Below are positions 16,903-45,083 of a DNA stretch of 64,000 nt, piece by piece. Position 1 is the stretch's first letter; each line of letters starts with the position of its first letter. The translations under genes were made by a program, and so were the position numbers. The stretch lies in NCBI GenBank assembly GCA_050952645.1, contig JBMNLI010000017.1, positions 32,001-96,000 of the forward strand, read 5' to 3'. The notes below the pieces were generated by a model. It saw only the letters and a program-made list of their open reading frames with translations, was not told the origin of the DNA and did not search any database. The stretch is from Bdellovibrionota bacterium. GTDB taxonomy: Bacteria > Bdellovibrionota_C > UBA2361 > CAKMMH01.

Positions 16903-17207
16903 AAAATCTAAATTTCCCATTTGTATAATAACGCTTTTTAGGTTAAAATATTAGTTTCGCTTAAAAGATTTAAAAAAAATCTTTTAGCTAATATACAATT
17001 TATATCGAGTAGAAGATAAGACTAATTTTAGTTTTTTATTTATATAACTTAACCTTAAAAGTTTATTCTTTAGAAATACTTATATATATATATAAAGCTT
17101 TCGTGATGACTTACATATTTTGTGAGCATATTTTGTGAGCATATTTTATATAAGCTTGCAAGATGCATCTCTATCAACTTTTTTTTCATATAGTAAAGGA
17201 GCTAAAT

Positions 17208-17417
17208 ATGAGCGAGCAACCAGCGGGTAACTTAGCAGATAACGAGCAAGCAGGTTGTGAAATTCCATTTAAACTTGCTGAGGCATTAAAAGAAGGGAAT
17301 TGCGGAAACCAAGGTAGGCAAGGAGACGTTCCTAACGATGGAAACACTCTTACTCCTTCTTCGTTTTCTCCTTCAGAAGCCGCAACTAATGAAGAAGGTG
17401 GCGAAGCAGGACTTTGA
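17208..17417 (+). CDS. Orphan acidic micro-protein (69 aa)
   Basis: AAGGAG RBS 6 nt before ATG 17208; ORF is locally GC-richer than its flanks; MSEQPAGNL...GEAGL. Confidence 0.65.
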   Translation: MSEQPAGNLADNEQAGCEIPFKLAEALKEGNCGNQGRQGDVPNDGNTLTPSSFSPSEAATNEEGGEAGL

Positions 17418-17521
17418 AACGATTGCTTAAAGCGAGTTTAATTACTAACTAACAAAAATCAAGAAATTTTTAAGTAAACCTCTTTTTATTTAAAATTATT
17501 AAAAAAAGAAAGGGCTTTAAA

Positions 17522-17703
17522 ATGGCTGATGAAAAATTACCTCTAGATTTTGACCCAACAAACCCAACGGAAAGTAGTAAGCCTGTGGCGGAGATTCAAA
17601 AGCAGAAACTCCAAAGCTAACTCGCATAGATGGCTATGATGATGTATCGCCTAACGGACACTGCCTCCCACCATCTGTTTACGGTGATGTACCTCCACTC
17701 TAG
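17522..17703 (+). pseudogene. Probable frameshifted orphan micro-protein (about 60 aa if repaired)
   Basis: ORF 17522-17620 (MADEKLPLDFDPTNPTESSK...) overlaps a -1 frame 17581-17703 (ACGGDSK...DVSPNGHCLPPSVYGDVPPL*) that carries the motif shared with neighbouring peptides. Confidence 0.45.
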
Positions 17704-17866
17704 TTCTTAACTCCTTGCTACTTGCTTCCCCTTTAGCCTTAATAATTAAACTAAAACTAAAGTGCTTAAAGCACAAAGCTTGCTTTAATGGAAAAATTTT
17801 CCTAAACTAGTTTTTTAGTTTTAACTTATTTAAGAAAGGAAAACTTTAAGAAAGGAAAACTTGCCT

Positions 17867-18574
17867 ATGGAAAGTAGCAAACATGGTGAGCCACGTAAAG
17901 ATATAAATTTACATTTAAAACATATCATTTTCGATTACAATGGCACTCTTATAAATGATGCTTTGGCTCAATACGAGCCTTGTGCTAAAGCTTTTAGAGA
18001 GCATGAACTCCCCCCTCTTTCATTCGATAGATTTCAAAAAGAGCTATGTTACCCAGTTAAGGACTTCTATATTGCAAATGGGTTCGATACTGAAAAATAT
18101 GATTTTGCAGAAATGATGGATGAATATCATAGGCGCTTTCTTTTACTCCTTGAAAAATGCGAGTTATTTAGCGATGTAAAAGAAACATTAGAGTTCTTCA
18201 AAAACAAAAATGTAAGTTTATCTATCCTGTCTTCTTTAGAGCATAATATGCTTATGAAAAATACTAAAGATAAAAGTATCGATGAGTTTTTTACTAATAT
18301 CACAGGAACTAAAGATACCCAGGCAGGTAGCAAAATAGACAATGCTAAAAAGTGGTTTCAAGAAAGTGGCTTCAAAAACCATGAGATCATAATGGTAGGA
18401 GATACTTTACACGATGCGGAAGTTGCAGAAGCTTTAAATATAACTTGTTTTCTTGTATCACGTGGCGTTCAGCACAAAGATGTTTTACGAAAATCTAAAT
18501 ATAGAGTTTTTGATTCATTAAAGGATATGGTCGAAAATATAAAGACTGCTAACTATATCAGTATAGCGTCTTAA
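17867..18574 (+). CDS. HAD-superfamily phosphatase (phosphoglycolate phosphatase-like)
   Basis: Motif I IIFDYNGTL, ILSS, K, motif IV MVGDTLHD; start placed at ATG 17867. Confidence 0.88.
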   Translation: MESSKHGEPRKDINLHLKHIIFDYNGTLINDALAQYEPCAKAFREHELPPLSFDRFQKELCYPVKDFYIANGFDTEKYDFAEMMDEYHRRFLLLLEKCELFSDVKETLEFFKNKNVSLSILSSLEHNMLMKNTKDKSIDEFFTNITGTKDTQAGSKIDNAKKWFQESGFKNHEIIMVGDTLHDAEVAEALNITCFLVSRGVQHKDVLRKSKYRVFDSLKDMVENIKTANYISIAS

Positions 18575-18674
18575 AAATGCATTCGCCTATATTAGCTAAC
18601 TATTATTATATTAGCTAAAATGAGTCAAATTTACTAAACTTCACGTTACTAATAACTTATGGAGCACTTTGAAA

Positions 18675-18860
18675 ATGTCTAATGAAAACACTAATCAACC
18701 TAATGGCGTTTCACCTGCAGCTAGCGACACGCTTACAAATGAGCTTGCAGATAGGCTTGCAGCTTGGAAAAGGGACAGTCGCGGAGAATCGCACAATGTT
18801 GGGCCTTTCGATCCTAATGGAGAACTACTGTCAGCCAGCTACCCTACTCAACAACTATAA
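18675..18860 (+). CDS. Orphan micro-protein (61 aa)
   Basis: GGAG at 18661-18664; MSNENTNQPNG...DPNGELLSASYPTQQL; locally GC-richer. Confidence 0.6.
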   Translation: MSNENTNQPNGVSPAASDTLTNELADRLAAWKRDSRGESHNVGPFDPNGELLSASYPTQQL

Positions 18861-18938
18861 GAGCTTTAAGCTAAGCGCTTGGCACTTAAAATTTTAAGTT
18901 CTAGTCGCTAGAAAAGAGTAGTCGTTGCTAGAAAAGAA

Positions 18939-19023
18939 TAAAAGAAAGGGAAGGTAAAAGGTTTTTCTTAAGGCTTTTTTTAAAAAGGCGAAAAAAAACT
19001 AGTCTTATCTTCACTTTCTTTTA
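18939..19023 (+). terminator. Long hairpin followed by T-rich tract downstream of the micro-protein gene
   Basis: TAAAAGAAAGgGAAGgTAA pairs with TTAtCTTCaCTTTCTTTTA; pyrimidine runs follow. Confidence 0.45.
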
Positions 19024-19208
19024 CGCTATCTTTACCTTTTCTTTTGCCTTTTCTTTTACATTTTCTTTTACCTTTAACATTTCCTTTTACTTTCCCTACA
19101 ATCCTTGCGTCTTTAAAAACTTGCGTCTTTGACAACTTACTTCTTGACAACTTAAGTGAGTTCTAGCAAAATTAAAAAATTAAGGATTAACCATAAACTT
19201 TTTTCCTT

Positions 19209-19292
19209 GCCTGGATGGTGGAATTGGTAGACACGTTGGACTCAAAATCCAATGCTAGAAATAGCGTGAGGGTTCGACCCCCTCTCTAGGCA
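19209..19292 (+). tRNA. tRNA-Leu (anticodon CAA)
   Basis: Acceptor stem GCCTGGA/TCTAGGC + A, D-loop GGAATTGGTAGAC, anticodon stem TTGGA/TCCAA with loop CTCAAAA, long variable arm, GGTTCGA T-loop; CCA not encoded. Confidence 0.96.
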
Positions 19293-19440
19293 TACTTTTT
19301 ATAAGTCATTAACAACAAACCTTAGCTTATATAAATTATAAATCTAAAATTTAATTAGTATATTAAAAAACCTTTCTTATTTTCTCTCTTACTATTTTTT
19401 CCTATTTAAAATTTTTATACTTTTGCTATAATCTTATCTT

Positions 19441-23655: not shown

Positions 23656-26058
23656 TTAACTCTTAGGTCTTTTAAATGATGATACTACGCCTTTAACTCT
23701 AGACTTAGAAGATGAAGTTAATTTAAATTTTCCCTTGCTTTCTTTTTGTTCTTCAGGTTTTGATTTTTTATCGTTTTTATTTTGACTATCTTTATTATCA
23801 TTATCTTTATTATTATCTTTATTATTATCTTTATTATTATCTTTACTATTATCTTTTTTATTATCTTTATTTTTATTCGATTTTGCTACACTTACAACCG
23901 TTACGCTTTCTTTAACTTCATCATTTTCAGGATAACTTTCAGGATAACTTCCAAAATTATCTGTAATATCTTTAGAAGAAGGAGCCTCTTTAAAATTTTC
24001 ATTATTAGCACTTGCTACTCTAGTAACGTTTCCTTGAAATTTAATCCCTCCTACTAATCCACGCTTAAAACTCGTCTCAGATAAATTTACTGTTTTCTCC
24101 GTTTGTTTCCTTGTTCTATTTTGAGAAGCTTTAGGTTTATCGCTACTACTGCTGCCCCCACTACTCCCCTTATCTTTCTTTTCTTTATTAGTATTTCTTG
24201 AAGGTTTTTTGCTTCTCTCTTGATTATCGCTACTTTCTAACTCTAAGTCTGCCTGTTCTAATGAATAAATTTTTTCATCTACCCATTCTGCTAAACCTAT
24301 CTCATCATTTTCTATTTTTTCAAATTGATTGATGTACTCTCTTCCCTCCCAAGTAGGTGGAAGTTCAGCATTAAACCAAAACGAACGCCCTTTAACTATT
24401 TCTCCATTTCCTAAATCGAAATATGCTAAACCTTTTTCAGCAGACATCTCGTGTTTTAACTCTTCTGCGCTTACTAAATCAGTTTCAGCTTCAGTTATAC
24501 TATAATTTTGAGACTCTCCTCCGCTTTCCTTTACACCAAACCCAGAACTCGCAACGCTAGAGGAAACTCCACTTCCGATAGATCTTTTAACCGTAGTAAT
24601 TTTACCTATCCAGTTAGACATATCATCGGCAGTTTGATTATCTCCTAAACGCATCATAACTTTTAAGTTTACGTTTGCCATAACACGCTCATAAAATGAT
24701 TGGCTAAGCCCGAGAGAGTTATCCATTAAACCACCAGTCGATTGCGCCCCGAATATAAGAGAAAATCTTCCTTTTCTTGCTAGCTCAAATAAGTTTGCCC
24801 AAGTAGGACCAAATGTTGAGGAGCCCTCATCTATAATAACTAAGTGTGGGTCTTCTAAGTGATGTTGCCTAGATGATGTAATTTCACCTATGGACACCTC
24901 TAAATCCTCTCTAAAAAGTTTTACCATTCTCGCAGCACTTTCTGCATCTTCAAGTCTTGGAAGCATAAAATATATAAGTTTTCCTCTTAAAATTGCGTCC
25001 GTTAAATTTAAGTCGGTATAATTAGTGCAAAATATCCCTCCCATAGAAGAACCGCTTATCGCATGAAGCTCAGATGAGATACCTCTTAAGTTATCAGTAA
25101 TTTTTGAAGTATCGAGTATTCCTTTTTTATCTCTATAACTTGTGGCTAAGTGGCCTAACTCGACTACTGCCTGTTTCGCACCTATTTTTTCAAGCATAGC
25201 CTTTAAGTGAGGATACGCTAAATTAAAAGCTGAAAGTGCCATGGCAACATCTTTTATAGACCAAGCAAGCCCGAAGCTTTCTAGAGCTCTAATCATTCTA
25301 TTGATCGAGTCGGAAGCTAGCCTATCGTAGTGCTTAGTGGCGCTTTGATCTGATGTTGGCGGAAGCCCAGCACGGAGAACTTTTCTTGCCTTTACATCTG
25401 CTCTTTGATTCGTTAGCACAAAATTATATGAGTGAATAGTATCGAAAGGATCGATAACTATTAAATCTTCTATCCTTCCAGTTATTAGCGCCATTAAAAT
25501 AATATCTGCTAAAACTCCCGAGTCACGCTTTGCATCTATAAATGTAAAACCGCTAGCTCTTCCTCTAGCCATTTGTTGAAACATTAAGGATTCTACCCAA
25601 AGAGTTTTACCAACGCCAGTTTTAGCAAATACGCACCCGTGGCTACACATATCATTATCGCTTAACCACAAAGGCTCTCCAGAGTCTAAACTAAAACCTA
25701 CTAAATATTTATCTATTATTTTCTTTCCTTTCGCTCTCGCCTCATCTAGCGCTATTTTAAAGCAATTCCTTTCAGGGGGCATTCCTAAAACATCTCTTCC
25801 CCCTCTTAAAATTACTTCACTTTCTCTATGTCGCTCTACGGCGTAATCTGTTGCTATCTCTTTAACTATGTTACAATAAAAAAATACGGGTAGAAAAGAG
25901 CCAATTAAAAATAAAACGAACGCATTTATTCCTTCCCATATAGGCAATAAAACTATAATAATTAAAATAATAGTTGCAAAAACTGCTCGTTTTATAAGCG
26001 TATCTCGCAAGTGTTCTTTCTTTTCATCGTATGTTATCTTATCGTACTGCCTAGCCAT
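23656..26058 (-). CDS. Type IV coupling protein (TraD/VirD4 superfamily; DotL/TrbC-like)
   Basis: Two N-terminal TMs, Walker A AKTGVGKT, FIDAK.D, GRIEDL, Walker B LVIIDE, AR..RFSLIFGAQS, AN.NLKVMMRLGD..TA; long charged tail. Confidence 0.85.
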   Translation of the reverse strand: MARQYDKITYDEKKEHLRDTLIKRAVFATIILIIIVLLPIWEGINAFVLFLIGSFLPVFFYCNIVKEIATDYAVERHRESEVILRGGRDVLGMPPERNCFKIALDEARAKGKKIIDKYLVGFSLDSGEPLWLSDNDMCSHGCVFAKTGVGKTLWVESLMFQQMARGRASGFTFIDAKRDSGVLADIILMALITGRIEDLIVIDPFDTIHSYNFVLTNQRADVKARKVLRAGLPPTSDQSATKHYDRLASDSINRMIRALESFGLAWSIKDVAMALSAFNLAYPHLKAMLEKIGAKQAVVELGHLATSYRDKKGILDTSKITDNLRGISSELHAISGSSMGGIFCTNYTDLNLTDAILRGKLIYFMLPRLEDAESAARMVKLFREDLEVSIGEITSSRQHHLEDPHLVIIDEGSSTFGPTWANLFELARKGRFSLIFGAQSTGGLMDNSLGLSQSFYERVMANVNLKVMMRLGDNQTADDMSNWIGKITTVKRSIGSGVSSSVASSGFGVKESGGESQNYSITEAETDLVSAEELKHEMSAEKGLAYFDLGNGEIVKGRSFWFNAELPPTWEGREYINQFEKIENDEIGLAEWVDEKIYSLEQADLELESSDNQERSKKPSRNTNKEKKDKGSSGGSSSSDKPKASQNRTRKQTEKTVNLSETSFKRGLVGGIKFQGNVTRVASANNENFKEAPSSKDITDNFGSYPESYPENDEVKESVTVVSVAKSNKNKDNKKDNSKDNNKDNNKDNNKDNDNKDSQNKNDKKSKPEEQKESKGKFKLTSSSKSRVKGVVSSFKRPKS

Positions 26059-26098
26059 TTAATTTTTTTATATTCTAAACCTTTAAATTTATATTTAT

Positions 26099-28009
26099 TT
26101 AATTTACATCTATCTTCATTTCAGTTGCTTTAGTAATTACTACTCTTTTTACTTTCTCTATCTCATCTGCCCATCTTATGCCTAGAAAATCTACAAGCTT
26201 AGAGGTTCTAAATAAAACTACTCCAGCAACATCTTTTATTTCATCTTCGTTAGTTAAAAATTTACAATCTATTACAGCATTATAAGGAACGTATCTATCC
26301 GATACCATTTTTCCAAGCCAGCTAAATGAATTTAAACAAGAGCGTAAATTTTGCCATACCTTTACATCGCTCTCATTGGGTAGAAATTTTAGCATTTCTT
26401 CTTTCGTTTCTTCAGAAAATTCTTTTAAAAATAAATTATTATCATCAGATAAAGTTTTTTGCTCTACTAAAGATAGTAGATTATCAGTTTCCCTTTTATT
26501 GTATACACGTTTTATAAGCTCTGTCATTTCTATTAAATCATTTTTCATCGCATCATTTAACAAACTAACTATAATCTCAATTTTAACGAACAATTGTCCG
26601 CTCTCTGTAGTATAAAAATTATCTTTAAGAGCATCGCTATTTTCTATATGTTCTACAAATATTTTAGTCCAAGCTTTATGAATTTCTGTGGATTTTGCAA
26701 AAAACAAAAGTTCATCGATAGCGTCATCGATTTCATCAAAGTGTAGTATTAGCTCTAGCCATTGCCTTAGAGTATAAGATTGGATATTCATTTTAAGTGG
26801 CATTCTAATTTCTAGAAAATCACTCTTTCTTTCTGCAAACACTATCGCCTTTCTTATCATTTCTCGCTCATCAAATGAATATTCGTCGCCATAATCTGGG
26901 CAAGAGTGGAGCACTGCCCGAGCGCAAAGATGCGGATAATTAGAGTGGCTTGCCCATCTATTTTTTGCGATATGATCGTATGCTAAAATTCTTCCCGCTT
27001 CTAGAGCCATAATTGCAGTTCCAATGCTTTTAGGGGAAATATTTTTTAATGCGTCTTTCATATTTTCAGTTAAAGAATTTATCATATTTACTTTTCTTTT
27101 GTTATCTTTAGGCACTCCTATATTTTTATTTCCATTATTAGATTTGTTTTCGCTTAAATTATCTTGATTTAAACTTGCTTGAATTTCAAAAGCACTTTTT
27201 AAAAATTCATAAGTATCTTCAAATAAATTCCCTTTCCCTTCTCCATCATCTATACTTGTAGGATAATTGTAATAGTGAAGAATAATAGAAGCTAAATATT
27301 TATTAGTTAAATTGCTAGCATTGTATCTCTCTAAGAGCACACAAAAAACAGACTTGTTATAAAACGTATCAGATACTTTCTCTAAGCAAGTAAGCCCAGG
27401 GACGTGGAGTGTTGGATTGCCATTTTTATCGCATTTTTTAATATCTGCCCTAGCACCAGAATAGAACAAGCGACCATTTCCAGAAACTCCTAGAAAATCT
27501 TTTGCCTTATATGGTTTTACATTTAATGTAGCGCGCACTGCAGCGTATATAACACATACTGCCCAAACTTTCCAACATGCAAGCATTACAAAAATTATTT
27601 GCAAAATAGAATTTGATATAATCACAAACGATGAAATTAGCAACGGGGATGATGGGAATATTTTACATATAGATAGAAATAAATTAAATATAAAAAGCGA
27701 AATTAAAGAAAAAAACGAAAGCTCTCCTTTAGTGCCGAACTTTGAAAGCCAAATATAGTATTTTTCAAATGAATCAACGATTGAAATATTTTTCCCTATC
27801 TCTTGTATTTCATGTAGGCTATCGAAAGCCTTGTTTATAATATTAGTAGTATTTGAGAATAAAGGTAATAATTCTATAACGAATATTAAAACTGCAAAAA
27901 AAGCTAAAAATATATACGAATAGTATGTAGACTTTTTCTCGTCCATAAGAGAAACAATATCTTTTGTCTCTGCATCATACTTGATATTTTTAACCATAAA
28001 AAACGACAC
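26099..28009 (-). CDS. Membrane protein co-oriented with the coupling protein gene (possible DotM/TrbA-like partner)
   Basis: N-terminal TM helices plus a large helical soluble domain; directly upstream of the T4CP gene; family assignment weak. Confidence 0.45.
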   Translation of the reverse strand: MSFFMVKNIKYDAETKDIVSLMDEKKSTYYSYIFLAFFAVLIFVIELLPLFSNTTNIINKAFDSLHEIQEIGKNISIVDSFEKYYIWLSKFGTKGELSFFSLISLFIFNLFLSICKIFPSSPLLISSFVIISNSILQIIFVMLACWKVWAVCVIYAAVRATLNVKPYKAKDFLGVSGNGRLFYSGARADIKKCDKNGNPTLHVPGLTCLEKVSDTFYNKSVFCVLLERYNASNLTNKYLASIILHYYNYPTSIDDGEGKGNLFEDTYEFLKSAFEIQASLNQDNLSENKSNNGNKNIGVPKDNKRKVNMINSLTENMKDALKNISPKSIGTAIMALEAGRILAYDHIAKNRWASHSNYPHLCARAVLHSCPDYGDEYSFDEREMIRKAIVFAERKSDFLEIRMPLKMNIQSYTLRQWLELILHFDEIDDAIDELLFFAKSTEIHKAWTKIFVEHIENSDALKDNFYTTESGQLFVKIEIIVSLLNDAMKNDLIEMTELIKRVYNKRETDNLLSLVEQKTLSDDNNLFLKEFSEETKEEMLKFLPNESDVKVWQNLRSCLNSFSWLGKMVSDRYVPYNAVIDCKFLTNEDEIKDVAGVVLFRTSKLVDFLGIRWADEIEKVKRVVITKATEMKIDVN

Positions 28010-28745
28010 CTAAATACATTTAAATTATAGATAATAACAAGTTTAGCACAAAAAGTCTTCTTATATCAAAAAATTTTTAAAAAGACCTATTTTCTTCTAT
28101 TTGTTATTACTTGTATAAGATATCGGATTTTTATAAAATAAAATAAATACGTTATTTAAAATAAAAATATGGCTTATCTTAGTTTTCTTATTGTTGTTTA
28201 AACTTTGTTGTTTAAACTCTAAGCTCAAGTTTTGTATCTCAATATTAAAAAGAGTTTAAGCTGCCTTAAAACGTGGAGAGTTAGAAATATCTATAACAGC
28301 GTTTTATACATCTATCTTATATTCTACTTGTGGTACATAAGTAATTTTATATAATAAAATCAATTTGTTATAGCTAATATATTTAACAAAAAACTCCTAA
28401 GTTAGTACCACTCGTTTAGAAAAAATTAAGATATTAAAAAATATTAAAAAGGTAGAAGCAAAATAGCCTCGCACGCTGATAAAGATTATGATGAATTTCT
28501 AAGCAAAATTCTATCAAGGTTTTGTAAAAAATGTACGAACATTACATTACAAGATTTTTTATTTAAAAATGGAGTTCTTATATAAGTAAATATAAAAATA
28601 AAGCGAAAAACTATTATAGTTTACATTATAATTTATGAATAATTTATGAATAATTTACAAATAATTTATGAATAATTTATAAAATTTTAGCTATAATTAA
28701 AAATTTATTATTAAGGAACACCTGTGCGAAAAGGAGAATTTTTGT

Positions 28746-29135: not shown

Positions 29136-29259
29136 GATGGCTAAATTTAAAATGGCTGAATTTAAGATGGCTAAAATTAAGATGATTAGGTTTAATAAAA
29201 TAATTAAAAATGATACTAAAAACGATATTAAAAACGATATTAAAAACTAAGGAGTGTTA

Positions 29260-29664: not shown

Positions 29665-29677
29665 GGAAGGTTATAAA

Positions 29678-30337: not shown

Positions 30338-30413
30338 AAAAAATTATATAAACGATTTTAAAAGTAATTATTTTAAAGTAATTATTTAAAAATAATTAAG
30401 AGAGATAAAAACT

Positions 30414-32439: not shown

Positions 32440-32471
32440 TTTTTATTAGGAGCATTTAAAAGGTAAATACT

Positions 32472-32957: not shown

Positions 32958-33005
32958 ATTTTTGCTAGTAAAGTTTTTGTTAGTAAGTTTTTATTAGGTG
33001 CTAAT

Positions 33006-33467: not shown

Positions 33468-33518
33468 ATGGAAAAGAACTCTAAACTTAGAAAGGTTTTA
33501 TAAAGGAGATTTTTTAAT

Positions 33519-36230
33519 ATGAGTATCTCAAGACTTCAGAAAGAACGATTATTTCATGATGAAGAGTTGTTTAATGATTTACTAACGTATGCAGAGTATG
33601 ATGAAGATTATAGAATTTTCTTTCATTCAGACACATCTTTTTGGGCCATATTTAGGCTCCAACCTCTAGGAATAACTAAAGTATCTGATAGCGATGCTTT
33701 TGCTACCGCTGATGCAATAAAAGAACTCTTTGATACATTCGATAAGAATATGGCAGTGCAAGTAAACTGGATTACAAGTTTTGAAATCGAAGCTCTTCTT
33801 AAAGAGAACCTAAACTCTTATCCTTTAACGGGGCCTGCTGGTTGGATGGCAAGGCGTTGGATTAGAGCCATTAGAAATGCTTCAAATAGTGCAGAGTTTT
33901 CTCTAAGACCTAAAAAATTAGACTTACTATTTTGTTTTAGATACGACCCACAGTGGAAAAGAAGAGACATAGCTGGGCAACTTGCAGAGGGTATGAGATC
34001 TATTTTTTCATTTTCTTCAAATAATATGTCCGCAGATAGAAGAAGACTAGAATATACAGAGCATGCTAATAAATTTAAAGGGATTATGGAAGGAACTGCT
34101 GCGAAACTTTCAGATTTAGGGTTTAGACCTTATCAATTTGAAGCACAAGATTTAATAGACTTAATGTTCCCTCTTTTAAATAGAAGAAGCACAAAGGGCG
34201 GAAAATACAAACGTGGCAGAAATACTAATGTAGCAGTGCCAGTCTATGACCCATTAGAAATACTTTCAAATCAAATTTCAGAAACTAAAGTTGAGCATCC
34301 TGAAAATGGAATTATAAAGAAAGATGGTAGAGTTTACAGAACTGTTTCTATGGTTCAAACACCTAAACAATGTTTACCTCTTATGATAGCTCCGCTTCAA
34401 TCTGCCTCTTATGAAAATATTTTAAGCGTAACTTACTCTAAAGACACTCAAGAAAAACAATTAAAAAAATTAGACCAAAGAGATGCGATGTTAGGATTTA
34501 GAGAACGAACTGCAAGGGGTAGAGCTAACCAAAAAGTTTTACATCAAATTTCTGCTATTCGTGCAGCTAGAGCAGAACTCTACGCTTCACGTTCTCAAAT
34601 AGTGCGAGTTGGTGTGCACCAAACTTTTATTAGCCAAAACGAAGATGAGGCTAAAAGGGCTTCCGCTGAGGCGATAGCTACAATATCTCAGTTAAATGGA
34701 GCTAGAGGTATGGTGCATGATATTTCAGATTTAGCGACCTTTATCCACTCTCTCCCTGCTATGTACGACCCAGAAATGGATGGCGAAGGCTGGACAGTTA
34801 CTATGCGTTCGTCTAGAGCTGCTAGACTGTTTCCTATTTATGGAAACTGGAGAGGGACTAAAGGAAAACAATTTTTGCTTCCGTCTTTATGGAATAGAGA
34901 ACTAGTAGGATTTGATTTATACGATTCTAACATAGCTCCAAACGTTTTAATAAGTGGAGTTTCAGGTTCTGGAAAAAGTTATTTGCTTTGCTATATGCTT
35001 ATAACGCTAGGCAGAGGGCACTTTGCTTCTCTTCCTAATGGAAGAATGGTTGAAAAACCTCCTATTATATTCGTTTTTGACAAAGGCATGACTGGGCAAC
35101 CTTGCGGCTTTGAAAAAGTTGCAAAATTATTTGGAGGAAGAATTTACGAAGCTACTCCATCAAAAGCACCTGCTATGAACTTTCTTGCTAGACTAGGAAG
35201 AACTGCTCCCGACCCTAGGAATGAAGACTACAAAGACTTAATAGATATGTGTGCAGATATTATATGCAACATGGCAGTCGAGGGAGCTAAGCAACCAGGA
35301 AGACTTGAAAAAAACGTAGTGATAGCCTCTCTAGTTGAAGCGCACAGGCTGTATAGAAACGGCCCTATGAGAAGAGAGTTTATTTTAAGTGATGCCGTTG
35401 CGGTGCTTAGAGCCCCTAAAAGAGTCGATGAAGATGAAGATACTGCAAAACGCAGACAACTAGTAGCGATGCTTATCGCCGATTATTACGGCGATGGAAC
35501 TTACGCAAGGTTCTTTGATAGACCTGGCGCTTTAAAATTACAAGAACGCTTTATAGTATTCGATTTAAAAGCGTTAAGTAGAAACCCAGACCTACAAAGA
35601 GTGTTTTTACAAGTAGCGATGCTTTGGGCAGATACCGTGATGAATGACCCTATGGAATTAGACTCGAGAAAAATATTAGTATTCGACGAGGCACACGACC
35701 TGATAGGTAAAACCGCTTCGGGAACCGTGGAAACTGCATTTAGACTTTACAGAAAAAGAAAAGGTATAGTTATAGCTGCATCTCAATCTGGTGAAGACTT
35801 TTATTTAGGAGAAGGTGGGCAAGCGATAGTTCAAAACAGTGCTCATAAAATTTTCTTAAAACAAGACCCTAGTAAATTTCATATGACTGCAAAGGCTTTT
35901 AATTTAACTCCGCAACAAGCAGACGTAATATTAAGGCTTCATACGATAAAAGGATTAGAGTCGCAATTTTATTTAATATCAGACATAGGCGAGTCGGCTC
36001 TCGTGCTTCCATTAGAGCCAGCATTTTATTGGGTAAGCACCAACAATGGTGATGATAACCAAATGTTTGCAGATATGTTAAAACAAAACAATGAAAACTT
36101 TTTAAAAACATTAGAGCAAATAGTTGCTACTGCTCCAAATGGAGCACACGTTTTTAAAAGCAGAATGGATTTAAATAGAGAAAATAGAATAAACAATTTA
36201 AACAGTTATATTGATGATATGGAGAGATAA
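33519..36230 (+). CDS. traC: TraC/VirB4 ATPase
   Basis: FDLYDS..APNVLISGVSGSGKS (Walker A), VFDKG, G.YARFF, FIVFDL, LVFDEAH (Walker B), R.YRK.KG...ASQS, NSAHKIFLKQ. Confidence 0.93.
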   Translation: MSISRLQKERLFHDEELFNDLLTYAEYDEDYRIFFHSDTSFWAIFRLQPLGITKVSDSDAFATADAIKELFDTFDKNMAVQVNWITSFEIEALLKENLNSYPLTGPAGWMARRWIRAIRNASNSAEFSLRPKKLDLLFCFRYDPQWKRRDIAGQLAEGMRSIFSFSSNNMSADRRRLEYTEHANKFKGIMEGTAAKLSDLGFRPYQFEAQDLIDLMFPLLNRRSTKGGKYKRGRNTNVAVPVYDPLEILSNQISETKVEHPENGIIKKDGRVYRTVSMVQTPKQCLPLMIAPLQSASYENILSVTYSKDTQEKQLKKLDQRDAMLGFRERTARGRANQKVLHQISAIRAARAELYASRSQIVRVGVHQTFISQNEDEAKRASAEAIATISQLNGARGMVHDISDLATFIHSLPAMYDPEMDGEGWTVTMRSSRAARLFPIYGNWRGTKGKQFLLPSLWNRELVGFDLYDSNIAPNVLISGVSGSGKSYLLCYMLITLGRGHFASLPNGRMVEKPPIIFVFDKGMTGQPCGFEKVAKLFGGRIYEATPSKAPAMNFLARLGRTAPDPRNEDYKDLIDMCADIICNMAVEGAKQPGRLEKNVVIASLVEAHRLYRNGPMRREFILSDAVAVLRAPKRVDEDEDTAKRRQLVAMLIADYYGDGTYARFFDRPGALKLQERFIVFDLKALSRNPDLQRVFLQVAMLWADTVMNDPMELDSRKILVFDEAHDLIGKTASGTVETAFRLYRKRKGIVIAASQSGEDFYLGEGGQAIVQNSAHKIFLKQDPSKFHMTAKAFNLTPQQADVILRLHTIKGLESQFYLISDIGESALVLPLEPAFYWVSTNNGDDNQMFADMLKQNNENFLKTLEQIVATAPNGAHVFKSRMDLNRENRINNLNSYIDDMER

Positions 36231-39278: not shown

Positions 39279-39743
39279 TTTTGGTTCTTCACGTTTTAGG
39301 TGGGTTAGCTTAAAAGAAAATTGGAGCTAGCTTTAGCTAGCGGAGATTTTCTTTTGGGCTTCGTCGATAAGTGATACTAATTTTAAGATCTAAAACCCAC
39401 CCTTAAACGTGAGGAAGCATTTTGGTTCTTCATGTTTTAGGTGGGTTAGAAAAATTGTTTTGGGGTTAGCTTAAAAGAAAATTGGAGCTAGCTTTAGCTA
39501 GTGGAGATTTTCTTTTGGGCTTCGTCGATAAGTGATACTAATTTTAAGATCTAAAACCCACCCTTAAACGTGAGGAAGCATTTTGGTTCTTCATGTTTTA
39601 GGTGGGTTAGAAAAATTGTTTTGGAGGTTAGCTTAAAAGAAAATTGGAGCTAGCTTTAGCTAGCGGAGATTTTCTTTTGGGCTTCGTCGATAAGATGGCA
39701 CTAATTTTTTAGAATTTAAAACCACCCTAAAACGCACAAGAAC
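39279..39743. repeat. Three tandem copies of a 141-163 bp palindromic (MITE/REPIN-like) unit
   Basis: Units start at 39279, 39420 and 39581 (TTTTGGTTCTTCAYGTTTTAGGTGGGTTAG); each has imperfect terminal inverted repeats and an internal AAAAGAAAAT..GCTAGC-TTTA-GCTAG..ATTTTCTTTT hairpin. Confidence 0.9.
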
Positions 39744-41475
39744 GTTTTTTTATTTCTTCTTTTAATTTTACAATAAAATCTTCTAAAGGAATAGTTTCTT
39801 GTATTTCCTTTCCTCTTTCACGCACAGTTACGGAGTTTTCTTCTAGTTCCTTAGCGCCTAATATAAGCGTGTATTGCACTCTTTTTGGGATACTAGCTCT
39901 AATCTTATATCCTATTTTTTCATTAGAAAAATCTTTTTCAATGTAAAATCCCTCATTTCTTAAAGCATCGTATACTTTTTGCCCATAATCGTTAAAACTT
40001 TCAGATACTGTAAGGATATTTACTTGACAAGGTGCAAGCCACAAAGGGAATTTCCCTTCACAGTTTTCTATAAGAATTCCTAAAAATCTTTCGACGGAGC
40101 CAAATAGGGCTCTATGAATCATTACAGGTCTATGTTTTTGATTATCTTCACCGACATAAGAGATATCAAACCTTTCTGGCAAGCTCATATCTACTTGCAC
40201 AGTTCCACATTGCCAGCTTCTTTGCAAAGTGTCTTTTAAATGAAACTCTAATTTAGGACCATAAAAAGCGCCTTCTCCCTTACTAATTTCAAACTTAAAA
40301 TTATGTTTAGTAAGTGCATCTAAAAGTGCCTTTTCCGTGGTATCCCATATTTCATCGGAGCCTATCCTATTTTCAGGTCTAGTAGCTAAATAAATTGAAA
40401 CATCATTAAAACCAAAATCTTTATAAATATCTAAAATTAGTTTCGTTGTATCTATGCATTCTTTTTCTAGTTGCTCTAAAGTGCAAAAAATATGTGCATC
40501 ATCTTGAGTAAACTCTCTTAAACGCATCAAACCTGCGAGCGTTCCGCTAGCTTCATATCTGTGAACTTTTCCAAACTCTGCCATTTTTAAAGGTAAATCT
40601 TTATAAGATTTTAATCCTTGTTTATATATAAGCACTCCGCCAGGGCAATTCATAGGCTTTATACAAAACACTCTCCCATCTTGAGTAGTTCCTGAGTAAT
40701 TATGAGCTCCGTATTTTTCCCAATGTCCCGAAGTTTCCCAAAGCACTCTATCCATTACAGATGGAGTTGCAACTTCTATATACCCATTTTCTTCCTGTCT
40801 TTTTCTCATATATTCTATAAGCGACCTAAATATTCTAAGGCCATTATTATGCCAGAAGATAGCCCCTGGAGCGTATTCGGGATCGAAATGAAATAGCCCC
40901 ATTTCCTTTCCTATTTTTCTATGATCTCTTTTTTTAGCTTCTTCTAGCATAAATAAGTAAGCATCTAAATCTTTCTGAGAGTGAAAAGCTACTCCGTAAA
41001 TACGTGTAAGCATTTTATTGTTAGAATCCCCGTGCCAGTAGGCTCCAGCGACGCTCATAAGTTTAAAGGCTTTGATCTCTTGAGTGTTATCTACGTGAGG
41101 CCCTTGACATAAGTCTACGAAACTTTCACCAGTATAATAAAGAGACGCTTTCTCTCCTCTTTTTTCTATCTCATTTATCCAGTCTAGTTTATATTCATTA
41201 TTTTTGAAAATTTCTCTAGCTTCATTTACAAATACTTCTTTTCTTATAATTTTATCTTTTCTTTCGATAATTTTTCTCATTTCTTTTTCGATTTTTTGCA
41301 AATCTTCTAAGCCTATCGACACGCCTTCTTCAAACTCGAAATCACCATAAAAGCCATCTTCCGTAGCAGGTCCCATAGCCATTTTAGTATTAGGATAAAT
41401 TTTTAGTATCGCCTCTGATAACACGTGTTCGCAAGAGTGTCTAAGCGCCATAAGCTCATTATTTTTACTTTTCAT
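39727..41475 (-). CDS. thrS: Threonine--tRNA ligase (short form without N-terminal TGS domain)
   Basis: RHSCEH editing motif, DLCQGPH, RDHRKIG, KPMNCP, FTQDDAH, AFYGPK, MIHRA. Confidence 0.97.
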   Translation of the reverse strand: MKSKNNELMALRHSCEHVLSEAILKIYPNTKMAMGPATEDGFYGDFEFEEGVSIGLEDLQKIEKEMRKIIERKDKIIRKEVFVNEAREIFKNNEYKLDWINEIEKRGEKASLYYTGESFVDLCQGPHVDNTQEIKAFKLMSVAGAYWHGDSNNKMLTRIYGVAFHSQKDLDAYLFMLEEAKKRDHRKIGKEMGLFHFDPEYAPGAIFWHNNGLRIFRSLIEYMRKRQEENGYIEVATPSVMDRVLWETSGHWEKYGAHNYSGTTQDGRVFCIKPMNCPGGVLIYKQGLKSYKDLPLKMAEFGKVHRYEASGTLAGLMRLREFTQDDAHIFCTLEQLEKECIDTTKLILDIYKDFGFNDVSIYLATRPENRIGSDEIWDTTEKALLDALTKHNFKFEISKGEGAFYGPKLEFHLKDTLQRSWQCGTVQVDMSLPERFDISYVGEDNQKHRPVMIHRALFGSVERFLGILIENCEGKFPLWLAPCQVNILTVSESFNDYGQKVYDALRNEGFYIEKDFSNEKIGYKIRASIPKRVQYTLILGAKELEENSVTVRERGKEIQETIPLEDFIVKLKEEIKKRSCAF

Positions 41476-41700: not shown

Positions 41701-41910
41701 ATGCGTAAATATAAAACTTATGATATAGAATTTAAGAAGGGTCTAGTTAAAATAGTTGAACAAGGCAAAACAATTAGTGAAGTAAGCAAAGAGTACAACA
41801 TTGCCTGTTCTACATTAAAGGAGTGGGTTAAGCGCTACTCAACAATAAAAATAAATGGTGAAGAATTAACATTAGATAAGTTTAAGGAGATAACTTCAAA
41901 GACTATTTAA
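41701..41910 (+). mobile_element. IS3-family transposase OrfA (HTH) remnant; no OrfB
   Basis: YDIEFKK.LV.....GKTISEVSKEYNI..STLKEWVKRY matches the IS3 OrfA HTH; TG...ACTAGACA at 41599-41618 may be a left end; no DDE ORF follows. Confidence 0.72.
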
Positions 41911-42377
41911 CTTACGATTCACGCATTTATACTTAAGAATAAAAAACTTTAGGAAGTTAAAAAATAAATTAACTTAACCTATTTCTAGCCTTATCTTCTA
42001 CCCGATATATATATAAACATTTAAGTATTACACTTAATATTTAGCTAAAAAATTATTTTTTAATTTCTTAACTAAGTACTAAATAATAGCTTTTAAACGA
42101 TTTATAAACAAACTATAATATTGAAATATTATTTATTGTTAGCGAATTGTCAAATTAAACTAGATTCTTAAAATTATAAGAAATGATAAAACTTTTAAAT
42201 TAAGAAAACAAATTATTATAGAAAGAGAGAAGATAAAACTTAAGGCAGGTAGCCACAAACCCTATTCTCTCTCTTTACTTATATCGACTTATACCGTGGC
42301 GCTTACGCTTGGGCAATTAGGCGAAGTCGTACTTGTCCCCGTCTCGTCGTCTAGCGAAGTCGGCAATCGGCAAAGGG

Positions 42378-42611
42378 CTAGACGAAAACACGCACCGCTT
42401 GTTCACTTGCTGCGAGCAAAGCGGCAATCTGAGGATCATCTAAATTATGCCCATGCTTGCCTGGAACCAGAGAACTAAGCGAAACCTCCAATCGGTTAGG
42501 CGGCTCGTCGCAAGGACTGGAAAGCACTTCCAAAATTTTCAAACTATTTTCGTTGCCTTCCAATAATTTTGCCAATTCTGCAGGCGGCAGCTTGTCAACG
42601 TTTGTATCCAT
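42378..42611 (-). CDS. Orphan acidic micro-protein (77 aa)
   Basis: AGGAG RBS 7 nt before ATG 42611 (MDTNVDKLPP...); locally GC-rich. Confidence 0.55.
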   Translation of the reverse strand: MDTNVDKLPPAELAKLLEGNENSLKILEVLSSPCDEPPNRLEVSLSSLVPGKHGHNLDDPQIAALLAASEQAVRVFV

Positions 42612-42710: not shown

Positions 42711-42790
42711 GTTCTTCCACAATAAACTTGATAGATTAAAACTTGATAGATTAAAAATAGCGATATCTTACAAGCTTATTGTGGAAGAAC
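42711..42790 (-). other. 5' leader hairpin, copy C
   Basis: GTTCTTCCACAATAAACTTG / CAAGCTTATTGTGGAAGAAC; the only mismatch is G-U on the minus strand. Confidence 0.7.
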
Positions 42791-43290
42791 CCTAAATTTT
42801 AAGTTTTTAGTATTAACAAAAGCTTCCCCTCTTTTAAGAACTTTGTCTAAAATAACGACACCCTAAAGACGATATAAGCATGCGAAAGTTTTAAAGTTAA
42901 ACTAAAATCAAACCTTAAAGTAAACCTTTAAAAAGTTTTATCTTCTACTTAAGTATATAATCTTGTAAAGAATTAAATATACTTCAGTTTTTTTATTTAA
43001 AAAAGAGAAAAACTTCTAACATCTTTAAATTAAACTTAAACTTTCCCTTCTTTTACGTATAAAATTTAATTTTAACTTTATAACCTACCCAAAATAATTT
43101 AAAAAAGCTAAGAAACACTCACATAAATTATCAAAAATAGCATACGTAAATACGTATGCACAAAGAAACAACAAATAACAAGTCTTTAAGCTCAAGTTTT
43201 AGCTCTTAAAAACATAGTATACGTAAAACAAGGGAAAATTTAGGTAAAAAAATAGAAAAAGAAAAGAAAAGATTAAAGAAAAGAAATAAG

Positions 43291-43374
43291 AAAAAAATGG
43301 GAAAGAAGATAAGGCAAGGGAGATAACAATATCTCTAAATAAAAAACCTTCTCTTTGCTCTTCCCCATTTTTTT
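43291..43374 (-). terminator. Terminator-like hairpin with U tract
   Basis: AAAAAAATGGGAAAGA / TCTTCCCCATTTTTTT; the mismatch is G-U on the minus strand. Confidence 0.6.
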
Positions 43375-43413
43375 ATTTTGACACCCTCTACCTTAAGTGA
43401 TGACTCTTAAGAG

Positions 43414-43542
43414 TTATTCGTCGTCGTCGTCGTCTTTGTCGCCATAAAAATCAGATCTCCAATCTTCTACGCTAGGGTATTTGTCATCAGACACATCGAC
43501 GCCATATAAAGTTGATGGGGGACATAAAGTTGATTTGCTCGT
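43414..43542 (-). CDS. Orphan highly acidic peptide (42 aa; ACG at the expected start position)
   Basis: AGGAG-7nt-ACG AGC AAA...; product SKSTLCPPSTLYGVDVSDDKYPSVEDWRSDFYGDKDDDDDE; alternative TTG at 43596 has no clear RBS. Confidence 0.45.
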   Translation of the reverse strand, partial: TSKSTLCPPSTLYGVDVSDDKYPSVEDWRSDFYGDKDDDDDE

Positions 43543-43639
43543 TAGATTTCTCCTAATGTCGTTGTTGTTGTTTTTTAAGCCACTAACAAATAACAAAAGT
43601 TAGCTACGATAAATGTTCTTTTCTAGCTAGGCTAGAGTT

Positions 43640-43697
43640 AAAAGAAACATTCTTAGTAAACTCTAATATTTTAAAGCTTACTTAGAATGCTTCTTTT
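43640..43697 (-). other. 5' leader hairpin, copy B
   Basis: AAAAGAAACATTCTTAGTAAACT / AGCTTACTTAGAATGCTTCTTTT; A-C mismatches read as G-U on the minus strand. Confidence 0.7.
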
Positions 43698-43972
43698 TTT
43701 ATTAAAAACATATAGTTTAAAAAATGCAAACTTTTAAAAGGAAAAACACTAGAAATAAAAGTAATGAAGCTATGAGCAAAGTAAATTTTAAAAAAAATTT
43801 TTACTCAAATGTTTTTTTTAAGGAAACTATATTTTTCGTAGGCTATAAAATCGTAAAATAAAATTTAAGCAATCTTAAAAACATAAATATCAAAAATGAT
43901 AATCAAAGACGATTAAAAAAGACGATTAAGGACGATTAAGTAAGAGAAATATTAAATAGAAAAAATATATTT

Positions 43973-44043
43973 AAAAAAACGGGAGAAGCACTAAGCATTT
44001 TTGCACGAGTGGCATATAACCTTTTTACTTCTCCCATTTTTTT
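43973..44043 (-). terminator. Terminator-like hairpin with U tract
   Basis: AAAAAAACGGGAGAAG / CTTCTCCCATTTTTTT; similar to the 43291-43374 hairpin. Confidence 0.62.
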
Positions 44044-44107
44044 TTATTCTTCTAGAGCAACTTTATTTAATTCATTATTTACCTGTCTTGCCACAGAACT
44101 ATAAAAC

Positions 44108-44518
44108 TCACAATCTCCCGTTCGTGCTCCTGTTCGTGTCAAAATGGTATAACGCATCCGCCAGCTTCGCAAGTCTCCTCAAGAACAACGGATTGCCGTA
44201 GGCGACAAGGGAAACTTTGCCAGCATCACCTTCTGCAGCTTGAATAGATGCACCTGCATCACTGCCGTTTTTAGAAATTTCGCCTGCTTTGGTTTCAGAA
44301 ACGTTACTAAGCAAATCTGAATCAGGGAATTCTTCAGGGAATTGTTTAGGGAATTCTTCAGGGGGTTCATTAGTGTTTTCATTAGAACCCACATTTGGCT
44401 CGTTTGCAACATTTGGAACGCTAGTAGTATAGTCGCTAATTGAAACACTCTCGCTACTACGCATACTGTCGAAATGTTTAGCAAAGAAAGCGAAGATTTT
44501 ACTAATTAGCTTTTTCAT
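44108..44518 (-). CDS. Orphan acidic, largely low-complexity protein (136 aa)
   Basis: AAGGAG RBS before ATG; amphipathic N-terminus MKKLISKIFAFFAKHF; PEEF repeats. Confidence 0.68.
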   Translation of the reverse strand: MKKLISKIFAFFAKHFDSMRSSESVSISDYTTSVPNVANEPNVGSNENTNEPPEEFPKQFPEEFPDSDLLSNVSETKAGEISKNGSDAGASIQAAEGDAGKVSLVAYGNPLFLRRLAKLADALYHFDTNRSTNGRL

Positions 44519-44582
44519 GAAATTCTCCTTTTGTTCTAGGAATTCTTTTTTAAATTTTCATACAAATTATTGAATTTGTATA

Positions 44583-44643
44583 AAAGGAAACATCTTAAAA
44601 TAAACTTTATGCATTTAAAAGCTTATTTTAAGATGCTTCCTTT
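44583..44643 (-). other. 5' leader hairpin, copy A
   Basis: AAAGGAAACATCTTAAAATAAACTTT / AAAGCTTATTTTAAGATGCTTCCTTT; both mismatches are G-U on the minus strand. Confidence 0.72.
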
Positions 44644-45083
44644 CGTTAGTTTTTCATAAAAATACAAGACTTTGAAAATGCAAACTTAAAAAAAAATTAG
44701 CAAGAATATCTAAGAAAAATCTGCGTCTTAATTTTAAGGAATAAAAAATTTAGGAAATTTAAGTAAAAAAAAATTACCTTAACCTAATTTATTAAGCCTA
44801 GTCTTCTACCCTGATACAAATTAGAGTGAAAAAGGAGAAATTAAACGACTCTCCCCTCTTCAAACTAATTTATATATCTGTAATTAAACGAATAATGCTT
44901 CAATAACTTTATTAAAAAATCTTTAACTTACTCTAAATTAAAGCTTTCACAAATATAAATTACTTTTAATATAGCTATGAACGTAAAAAAAAATCTTTCA
45001 CTAGTTCTTCGCTAAAGTCAATTTTCTTTTAAGCGAACTAAAAAAATTTCTTACCGCCTTAAAACGCCCAAAAGATAAACTCT

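What the first reader, a model, noticed from the sequence alone, without database searches (positions are those of the whole stretch)
17001..44818. Dispersed family of inverted-repeat-bounded cassettes carrying orphan micro-proteins
Seen: the motif TATATC(A)GRGT-AGAAGATAARRCT occurs on the coding strand upstream of orphan genes at 17001-17023 (+), 42934-42958 (-) and 44795-44818 (-). A fourth copy at 41990-42009 (-) is 19/20 identical to 17001-17020. The reverse complement of the core occurs at the far end of each cassette: 19000-19012 (13 bp perfect), 42228-42241 (14 bp perfect), 43304-43315 (10/12). Paired ends covary between cassettes (AAGACT/AGTCTT, AAAACT/AGTTTT, AGGC/GCCT), and each 3' copy overlaps a terminator-like hairpin. 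Cargo is acidic Pro/Asn/Ser-rich small ORFs with strong RBSs. Inference: either non-autonomous mobile cassettes, or transcripts whose 5' and 3' ends pair (long-range RNA switch). I know of no described system that matches.
Basis: partly seen in the sequence, partly recalled or inferred. Interest (0 to 1): 0.82.

Follow-up and report, generated by a model that had tools for sequence, protein, structure and literature searches.

The report
Small gene units with complementary ends
A few small orphan-gene units in an uncultured bacterium and its sister species each start with a short box that exactly complements one arm of the hairpin at their far end, so the two ends probably pair, but they are not a genome-wide mobile family.

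Summary
The family is not dispersed. The 5' element (L, core GTAGAAGA + 7 variable nt) has 4 copies in 1.95 Mb, all in two intergenic hot spots 25 kb apart. One more copy lies at the orthologous ThrRS-MgsA spacer of the congener G001. None was found in 89 other genomes of the order. Each inverted copy (R) is the descending arm of a local purine/pyrimidine hairpin whose own ascending arm (L') fits it less well than the distant L. L-R matches are unit-specific: 13, 14 and 13 nt perfect, with two-sided differences at 5 positions. The G001 pair encloses an unrelated ORF. Cargo ORFs have no homologues, and some are frameshifted. There are no target duplications, no shared termini, no further copies and no nearby transposase. 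The real MITEs of this genome behave differently.

Best reading (about 0.38): L and R pair within one transcript, in competition with the terminator's own arm. Rivals are a DNA inversion switch, relics of insertion into a hairpin, and a promoter motif. No RNA or read data could be obtained, so the mechanism is inferred. The 44795/43304 pair is weak; 43304 matches the orphan copy at 41990 better.

The parts
16961..17031 (+). 5' frame of unit 1: weak hairpin block shared with the 41990 copy (16961-16991), TATATC (17001-17006), L core (17009-17024)
17208..17417 (+). s1, 69-aa acidic orphan ORF (pI 4.1; RBS AAAGGAG)
17522..17703 (+). s2, small ORF broken by a frame change (32-aa first part; 40-aa stop-to-stop continuation in the +1 frame)
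17861..18574 (+). HAD-family hydrolase gene inside unit 1; paralogue on contig C10 (69% nt identity)
18675..18860 (+). s3, 61-aa acidic orphan ORF; shares 22/23 nt with an internal stretch of s6
18925..19029 (+). 3' frame of unit 1: A-rich box, ascending arm L', loop, descending arm R (core 19000-19012), followed by 12-bp pyrimidine tandem repeats
19208..19293 (+). tRNA-Leu(CAA), the conserved right border of hot spot 1
41926..42071 (-). orphan 5' frame (c2): upstream block 42041-42071, L core 41990-42002, 84-nt leader homologous to the 44795 leader; cut off by a transposase-HTH remnant (41701-41910, +)
42213..42292 (-). 3' frame of unit 2: L'-loop-R hairpin, R core 42228-42241
42378..42611 (-). 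s4, 77-aa acidic orphan ORF; GC-rich tail 42290-42377 is open only in other frames
42711..42790 (-). 26-nt-arm hairpin in the leader of unit 2, unique in the genome
42934..42958 (-). 5' element of unit 2 (c3), L core 42934-42947
43288..43378 (-). 3' frame R3: hairpin plus U-run, core 43304-43315; best complement is c2, not c4
43414..43596 (-). s5, 60-aa acidic ORF with no RBS; doubtful as a gene
43973..44043 (-). internal terminator after s6, same hairpin family (GGGAGAAG...CTTCTCCC plus U-run); alternative partner of c4
44108..44518 (-). s6, 136-aa orphan ORF (pI 5.0)
44795..44818 (-). 5' element c4 (core AGAAGACTAGGCT), directly after the MgsA terminator hairpin

Best explanation
These are lineage-restricted expression units for small orphan genes, not transposons. 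Each unit has a conserved frame. On the coding strand a 5' box L (GTAGAAGA plus about 7 unit-specific nt) sits 185-320 nt before the first ribosome-binding site. The unit ends in a purine-arm/pyrimidine-arm hairpin (L'-loop-R). R, the descending arm, exactly complements the distant L, while its neighbouring arm L' pairs with it imperfectly through G-U pairs.

I infer that L is transcribed, either at or close to the RNA's 5' end (a TATAYC box lies 2-4 nt upstream) or within the 5' UTR. I infer that L then competes with L' for R. One outcome would be a transcript closed end to end, which could protect it or create a double-stranded processing site. The other would be loss of the terminator hairpin and read-through into the next unit, the tRNA-Leu gene or thrS.

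Shown: the anatomy, the restriction to two loci, the unit-specific complementarity and its conservation across two species. Inferred: transcription of L, the pairing itself and its effect.
For: (1) Unit-specific exact complementarity: unit 1 has 13 nt, unit 2 has 14 nt and G001 has 13 nt. The pairs differ from each other on both sides at core positions 7, 10, 11, 12 and 14.
(2) In G001 the 12-mer GAAGACAAGATT occurs exactly twice in 2.3 Mb. These are the two ends of one unit, 552 bp apart and inverted. The unit sits in the same ThrRS-MgsA spacer as in G000 but holds an unrelated ORF.
(3) Housekeeping proteins of the two genomes are only 77-83% identical. The surrounding spacer gave no alignment beyond short patches, yet L and the R hairpin are retained.
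(4) R lies in a hairpin that uses G-U pairs (9 of 89 pairs), so it is shaped at the RNA level.
(5) L has no stable local partner; the leaders alone fold no better than shuffles (z +0.7, -0.9, +0.8, +1.0, +0.5).
(6) L:R and L':R are close in energy: -22.4 vs -20.9, -17.1 vs -17.5 and -23.7 vs -26.3 kcal/mol, as expected of alternative partners.
(7) In folds of hypothetical full-length RNAs the L:R helix is in the minimum-energy structure for unit 1 (2031 nt) and unit 2 (748 nt, also in the centroid).
(8) Each of the 4 in-unit L boxes binds its own unit's R best among the 4 R regions.
(9) A second complementary box pair lies inside the first: TTTATTCTTT/AAAGAATAAA in unit 1 and CTTATATCG/CGATATAAG in unit 2.
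Against: There are no transcript data. No RNA run was listed, so the start site is unknown and L could be untranscribed promoter DNA.

The L:R helices are almost purely Watson-Crick (2 G-U in 91 pairs, against 9 in 89 for L':R). The perfect cores also end abruptly. Both points fit DNA-level identity better than RNA-level selection.

In G001 and unit 3 the local hairpin wins in the full-length fold.

Purine-rich L boxes bind many CU-rich tracts about as well. For c4, 27 of 6396 background windows reach -20 kcal/mol, and c2 reaches -30.3 elsewhere.

The orphan copy c2 has kept a perfect match to R3, while the in-unit copy c4 has drifted by 2 nt. Selection on pairing predicts the opposite.

There are only 5 L and 4 R instances from 2 genomes. 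The second box pairs are short, AT-rich and absent in G001.
Confidence: 0.38

Rival explanations
1. DNA inversion switch (inverton-like). L and R are crossover sites, a promoter lies just outside L, and flipping the segment brings L'-loop next to L. That creates a terminator directly behind the promoter and turns the unit off.
For: The arms are perfect Watson-Crick copies with sharp edges and unit-specific sequence around a shared core. Sequence outside L is conserved (TATATC...). One inner end carries a good partner (L') and the other only a poor one; the local L-to-leader duplexes are only -8 to -12 kcal/mol. A terminator-type switch needs exactly that asymmetry. c2 and R3 match 12/12 although they do not bracket one unit.
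Against: No recombinase gene lies in the 64-kb window. The genome has 1 tyrosine recombinase and 2 large serine recombinases, all on other contigs. The sites show no dyad-symmetric binding-arm layout. The segments are 0.55-2 kb and contain whole genes, whereas over 75% of 10,983 catalogued invertons are under 300 bases (PMC11602134, passage read). Both assemblies show the same orientation.
Confidence: 0.2
2. Relic of insertion. L and R are the two arms of one former terminator or palindrome, and the cargo was inserted into its loop. The complementarity is inherited and has no present function.
For: L resembles a hairpin's purine arm that lacks a partner. Both sites are variable-content spacers: empty in G002 and different in G001. 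Cargo G+C (0.39-0.54) exceeds that of the neighbouring genes (0.28-0.38). Arms of an unsplit hairpin would covary in the ordinary way before the insertion.
Against: This needs at least 3-4 independent insertions into loops of one hairpin family, by an unknown mechanism. No unsplit copy of the hairpin was found in either genome. s1 and s3 have native third-position G+C (0.26, 0.32). The prediction that the inner arms (L' and the leader box) match each other holds only for unit 2.
Confidence: 0.17
3. Ordinary shared promoter or operator motif of a small paralogous gene family, with the inverted copies arising from purine-rich low-complexity sequence next to terminators.
For: L copies belong to longer homologous leaders: c2/c4 share 84 nt at 75%, and c1/c2 share an upstream block of 31 nt at 84%. 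R cores abut purine/pyrimidine tandem tracts that are common in this genome. Promoter-like hexamers lie nearby: TTAAAA-18-TACAAT ends at 16999, and TTGACA-16-TAATAT lies at 42153-42126.
Against: It does not explain the matched unit-specific bases, above all the G001 pair with two derived bases shared by both arms and no third copy in 2.3 Mb. L is an inverted copy of R, not a direct copy of L'.
Confidence: 0.1
4. Non-autonomous transposons (MITE or mobile-insertion-cassette type) moved in trans by a transposase.
For: Inverted ends enclose passenger ORFs. The units sit in variable spacers. A transposase remnant and a MITE lie next to them.
Against: No target-site duplication. The ends differ between units. 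There are 4 L copies, all local, and none elsewhere. The whole units are unique sequence. No intact cognate transposase is evident.
Confidence: 0.05

Closest known systems
5'-3' long-distance interaction in type I toxin mRNAs (hok/Sok; aapA/IsoA of Helicobacter)
   Same: A small-ORF transcript whose 5' and 3' ends pair. The pairing is conserved across loci and species, competes with local metastable hairpins, and yields a stable, inert full-length RNA (PMC6733600, introduction and model passages read).
   Different: There the 3' element masks the ribosome-binding site, the ORF encodes a small hydrophobic toxin and an antisense RNA is part of the system. Here L lies 185-320 nt upstream of the binding site, the ORFs are hydrophilic (acidic in G000, basic in G001), no antisense gene is evident, and R is a terminator arm.
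Invertible DNA segments (invertons; terminator-type switches such as cwpV of C. difficile, the latter recalled, not read)
   Same: Inverted repeats share a core, with perfect copies within each pair. A hairpin partner sits next to one repeat.
   Different: No invertase is nearby, the segments are much longer than is typical and hold whole genes, and there is no evidence of two orientations (PMC11602134 passage).
MITEs of this genome
   Same: Intergenic, bounded by inverted repeats. One copy lies between units 2 and 3 (43027-43250).
   Different: The MITE has more than 30 copies or fragments with common ends. The units here are unique sequences with unit-specific ends.
Integron gene cassettes / attC arrays
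   Same: Small, often orphan ORFs in one orientation. Each has a hairpin at its 3' end, and the cassette's 5' boundary complements part of that hairpin.
   Different: No GTTRRRY/RYYYAAC core sites are seen by eye, there is no integron integrase, spacers of 220-350 bp separate the units, and the complementary stretch is 13-14 nt rather than 7.

Membership tests
MITE / mobile insertion cassette | Terminal inverted repeats shared by all copies | tested here: not met
   Only GTAGAAGA/AGAAGA is shared; the next 7 nt differ between units.
MITE / mobile insertion cassette | Target-site duplication flanking the ends | tested here: not met
   Flanks read directly: CGAGT.../...ACTTT (unit 1) and AGAG.../...ACTT (unit 2). 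No direct repeat.
MITE / mobile insertion cassette | Multiple dispersed copies | tested here: not met
   nhmmer finds 4 hits, all in the window. Whole units are unique by blastn. 91 genomes of the order were searched; only G000 and G001 are positive.
Type I toxin mRNA with 5'-3' long-distance interaction | Conserved pairing of the transcript's 5' and 3' ends, with covariation | tested here: inconclusive
   Exact unit-specific complementarity with 5 two-sided positions, but the transcript ends are unknown.
Type I toxin mRNA with 5'-3' long-distance interaction | Small hydrophobic toxin ORF | tested here: not met
   Cargo GRAVY is -0.11 to -1.54. Short hydrophobic ORFs across the R hairpins exist in only 2 of 4 units and follow from the pyrimidine tracts.
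Type I toxin mRNA with 5'-3' long-distance interaction | Sequestration of the ribosome-binding site by the 3' element; antisense RNA antitoxin | not testable with these tools
   L is 185-320 nt from the binding sites, and there are no RNA data.
Inverton | Inverted repeat pair flanking the segment | tested here: met
   13-14 nt perfect pairs.
Inverton | Both orientations present in sequencing reads | not testable with these tools
Inverton | Site-specific invertase, usually nearby | tested here: not met
   PF00589: 1 hit, on contig C11. PF00239: 2 hits, on C7 and C10, both large (569 and 641 aa frames). None in the window.
Integron cassette / attC | attC with R''/R' core sites, and an integron integrase | tested here: not met
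   No GTTRRRY core seen by inspection of the hairpins. No attC model was available, so this is inspection only. Single tyrosine recombinase on another contig.
Intrinsic terminator | G+C-containing hairpin followed by a U-run | tested here: inconclusive
   R3 and the post-s6 hairpin have clear U-runs. R1, R2 and G001 have CU-rich tails. The consensus scan called none of them.
Known RNA families (Rfam 15) | Match at the gathering score | tested here: not met
   Only tRNA-Leu passes. The units give only sub-threshold hairpin matches to miRNA models.

The most novel reading that the evidence does not exclude
A conserved 'expression frame' for fast-turning-over orphan genes. A 5' leader box acts as a long-range rival of the terminator's own ascending arm, docked by a second inner box pair. 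Each unit then toggles between a terminated state and a closed or read-through state. The frame persists across species while its cargo is replaced.
Probability: 0.28. Interest if true: 0.8.

Novelty: new variant of a known kind. Interest (0 to 1): 0.55.

Why it matters
If the ends pair in RNA, this extends long-distance 5'-3' control, known mainly from type I toxin mRNAs, to ordinary small-protein genes and to terminator function. The two loci, each in two species, would then be a compact and testable case of a frame that stays while its genes come and go. That bears on how orphan genes are born and expressed. If the repeats are inversion sites, it would be phase variation in a lineage (uncultured Bdellovibrionota, according to earlier notes) where I recall none being described; I ran no literature search on that. 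Either way, the 'mobile cassette family' reading should not be carried forward.

Tried and rejected
- RNA runs: none was listed for window:41900-45000.
- Metagenome scan with MgsA: 80 loci were kept, with best-segment identity 43-55%. No close relatives, so it was of no use for comparison.
- Pfam at E up to 1 on 14 cargo or alternative frames gave 4 hits at E 0.15-0.22 and nothing credible. The first Pfam pass also gave none for the cargo.
- Homologue searches: s1, s4 and s6 found only themselves. The G001 ORF found only 96-98% identical proteins.
- Rfam at E up to 1 gave only sub-threshold hairpin look-alikes.
- Direct-repeat model (two direct copies of one hairpin flanking the cargo): rejected. 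L matches the complement of R exactly but matches L' only about 60%.
- Loop-crossover model (inner arms should match each other): best only for unit 2 (-24.0 kcal/mol) and not for the others.
- Extended inverted flanks of 60-125 bp align at z 1.9-4.3, but most of the score comes from the core. Outward extensions look like AT-rich chance matches.
- Cargo paralogy: s2 vs s5 is not significant (E 0.08). s3 vs s6 share only 7/8 aa (22/23 nt).
- Reading L as a sigma-28-type -10 box, or as a PmrA- or CpxR-type site: checked by eye against consensus sequences recalled from memory. Spacing was inconsistent, so I dropped it.
- Dot/Icm test for a Legionellales identity: no DotB above cut-off.
- c4 partner: c4 binds the post-s6 hairpin (-21.5 kcal/mol) and R3 (-20.0) about equally. 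Neither stands out from the background.

Full report
SETTING
The window is contig C17:32001-96000 of a 1,947,914-bp, 17-contig assembly with about 31% G+C. Earlier notes of this scan call it an uncultured Bdellovibrionota. I did not test that label, apart from seeing several PilB/PilT-type ATPases and no DotB.

The finding spans two intergenic regions that flank a conserved block with F-type type IV secretion genes (TraD-, TraE-, TraB- and TraC-like).
- Hot spot 1 lies between rodA (15760-16902), which follows the mreBCD-PBP2 cluster, and tRNA-Leu(CAA) (19208-19293).
- Hot spot 2 lies between mgsA/rarA (45084-46331, -) and thrS (39727-41475, -).

OBSERVATION
All stated coordinates hold. The 5' elements (L) are c1 17001-17023 (+), c2 41990-42009 (-), c3 42934-42958 (-) and c4 44795-44818 (-). 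They are not just a 20-mer.
- c2 and c4 share 84 nt of leader at 75% identity.
- c1 and c2 share a 31-nt upstream block at 84% identity.
- A second small block (AGGT[TA]) follows the core in c2, c3, c4 and G001.

The inverted cores (R) are at 19000-19012, 42228-42241 and 43304-43315.

Statistics:
- A profile of the four L regions finds only those four in the genome (E 1.7e-20 to 1.3e-13; next best E 0.92).
- The exact 11-mer GTAGAAGATAA occurs 17 times against 7.3 expected. Only the 3 copies in the window carry the TATAT flank.
- GAAGATAA[AG][AG]CT occurs 11 times, 5 of them in the 27.8-kb span (P 2.6e-7).
- GAAGATAAGACTA occurs only as the unit-1 pair. AGAAGATAAAACTT occurs 3 times, and two of those are the unit-2 pair.
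- Exact inverted pairs of 13 nt or more, spaced 200-3000 bp, number 564 genome-wide. No single pair is therefore remarkable. The repeated use of one motif is.

NOT DISPERSED, NOT A TRANSPOSON
A sequence model of L was searched in 91 genomes of the order. It scored E below 1e-8 only in G000 (4 hits) and in the congener G001 (1 hit). All other rows had E of 1.2e-3 or worse. A degenerate pattern gave 3 hits in G001 and none in G002 or G003; of the 3, one is the unit and two lie inside coding sequence.

The units are unique sequence in the genome. The flanks carry no direct repeats. In contrast, a real MITE sits between units 2 and 3 (43027-43250), with more than 30 copies or fragments and common ends.

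COMPARATIVE ANATOMY
Synteny with G001 (same genus) and G002 (same family) is conserved around both hot spots.
- Hot spot 1 holds 2,305 bp in G000, 1,604 bp of unrelated sequence in G001, and about 50 bp in G002, where rodA runs almost straight into the tRNA gene.
- Hot spot 2 in G001 holds one unit. Its parts are a 3' hairpin with AGAAGACAAGATT (L029:7077-7089, +), a G+C-rich ORF on the minus strand (L029:7273-7455) and GTAGAAGACAAGATT on the minus strand (L029:7630-7644).
- The shared 12-mer occurs exactly twice in that 2.3-Mb genome.
- The ORF is unrelated to any G000 cargo. Its only database relatives are 96-98% identical proteins whose C-termini differ by frame.

THE KEY PATTERN
Read from the A of AGAAGA, the cores are as follows.

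| Element | L | Complement of R (Rc) |
|---|---|---|
| Unit 1 | AGAAGATAAGACTA | (T)GAAGATAAGACTA |
| Unit 2 | AGAAGATAAAACTT | AGAAGATAAAACTT |
| G001 | AGAAGACAAGATT | AGAAGACAAGATT |
| c2 (orphan L) | AGAAGATAAGGCT | - |
| c4 | AGAAGACTAGGCT | - |
| R3 | - | AGAAGATAAGGCA |

The perfect pairs differ from one another on both sides at positions 7, 10, 11, 12 and 14. R3 fits the orphan c2 (12/12) better than c4 (10/12). c4 also fits the post-s6 hairpin about equally (-21.5 vs -20.0 kcal/mol), but neither exceeds the background.

WHAT R IS
Each R is the descending arm of a local hairpin. The ascending arm L' is purine-rich, related to L, and pairs with R partly through G-U (9 of 89 pairs). L:R is almost purely Watson-Crick (2 G-U of 91 pairs). 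L is thus an inverted copy of R, not a direct copy of L'. The two partners of R are close in energy.

The leaders have no significant fold of their own. The hot-spot-2 units as wholes are unusually structured:

| Region | z-score |
|---|---|
| Unit 2 | -5.0 |
| Unit 3, two halves | -7.0 and -6.2 |
| G001 unit | -13.6 |
| Five control regions | +1.3 to -2.6 |
| Unit 1, two pieces | -1.8 and -0.1 |

In full-length folds L:R appears in the optimum for units 1 and 2 but not for unit 3 or G001.

CARGO
The G000 ORFs are acidic (pI 4.1-5.0) and hydrophilic. The G001 ORF is basic (pI 10.2). G+C is 0.39-0.54 against 0.28-0.38 for the neighbouring genes. s1 and s3 have native third-position G+C. No family or homologue was found. 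s2 is frameshifted, and the tails of s4 and s6 continue in other frames. Unit 1 also carries a HAD hydrolase paralogue.

INTERPRETATION
The matched, unit-specific ends, kept across two species in otherwise unalignable spacers, need one of three things:
- selection on pairing;
- a DNA process that keeps the two copies identical;
- repeated birth from single hairpins.

I rank RNA 5'-3' pairing that competes with the terminator's own arm first (0.38). Both boxes are on the coding strand, R is demonstrably part of an RNA-type hairpin, the two partners are balanced in energy, and a precedent with covariation exists in type I toxin mRNAs (PMC6733600, passages read).

The near absence of G-U pairs, the sharp core edges and the c2/c4 contrast pull towards a DNA-level process. 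An inversion switch (0.20) would fit the asymmetric hairpin layout neatly. It lacks a recombinase, a site architecture and any sign of two orientations, and the segments are far longer than most catalogued invertons (PMC11602134, passage read).

A relic of insertion into a hairpin (0.17), a plain promoter motif (0.10) and trans-mobilised cassettes (0.05) follow.

LIMITS
There are two genomes, five L boxes and four R boxes. I had no RNA or read data. Promoter calls in 31% G+C DNA are unreliable. I did not see the supplements of the cited papers.

Noticed in passing
window 43027-43250: Copy of a roughly 220-bp MITE with 28-nt inverted ends (89% complementary). More than 30 copies or fragments occur across the contigs.
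   Followed up: partly
window 39302-39734: A 161-bp unit repeated 2.7 times (95% matches) between the M23 peptidase gene and thrS. Parts of the unit (AGCCCAAAAGAAAAT, AGCTTTAGCTAGCTCC) recur as inverted pairs on contig C10 near 293.9-297.0 kb.
   Followed up: no
window 41701-41910 (+): A 69-aa ORF with an IS3-type transposase HTH domain (PF01527, E 1.1e-8). It is a remnant that abuts and truncates the orphan 5' frame c2.
   Followed up: partly
window 23656-36230: F-type type IV secretion genes (TraD-like coupling protein, TraE, TraB, TraC/VirB4) lie between the two hot spots. They are syntenic in G001 and partly in G002, so this is an old resident rather than a recent island.
   Followed up: partly
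genome contigs C1, C7, C10, C12, C14, C17 (e.g. C17:181498-183333): At least 8 places carry an 18-nt inverted pair CAAAAAAGTTCACCTAAA spaced about 1.8 kb. This looks like a multi-copy insertion sequence.
   Followed up: no
L029:7273-7455 (-) and proteins P0001-P0012: The G001 cargo ORF occurs in other samples at 96-98% identity with at least three different C-terminal frames after a CGC-rich run. This points to slippage or relaxed constraint at the tail.
   Followed up: partly
window 19015-19154: Downstream of R1 lie 12-bp pyrimidine tandem repeats (TTTCTTTTACCT, 5.2 copies). They are followed by 16-bp repeats (3.2 copies) that carry a TTGACA box upstream of tRNA-Leu. Similar purine/pyrimidine tracts recur in many spacers of the genome.
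   Followed up: no
window 18678-18700 vs 44364-44386: A 23-nt patch, 22/23 identical, is shared by the start of s3 and the interior of s6 (SNENTNQP/SNENTNEP). It is the only clear link between cargo of the two hot spots.
   Followed up: partly
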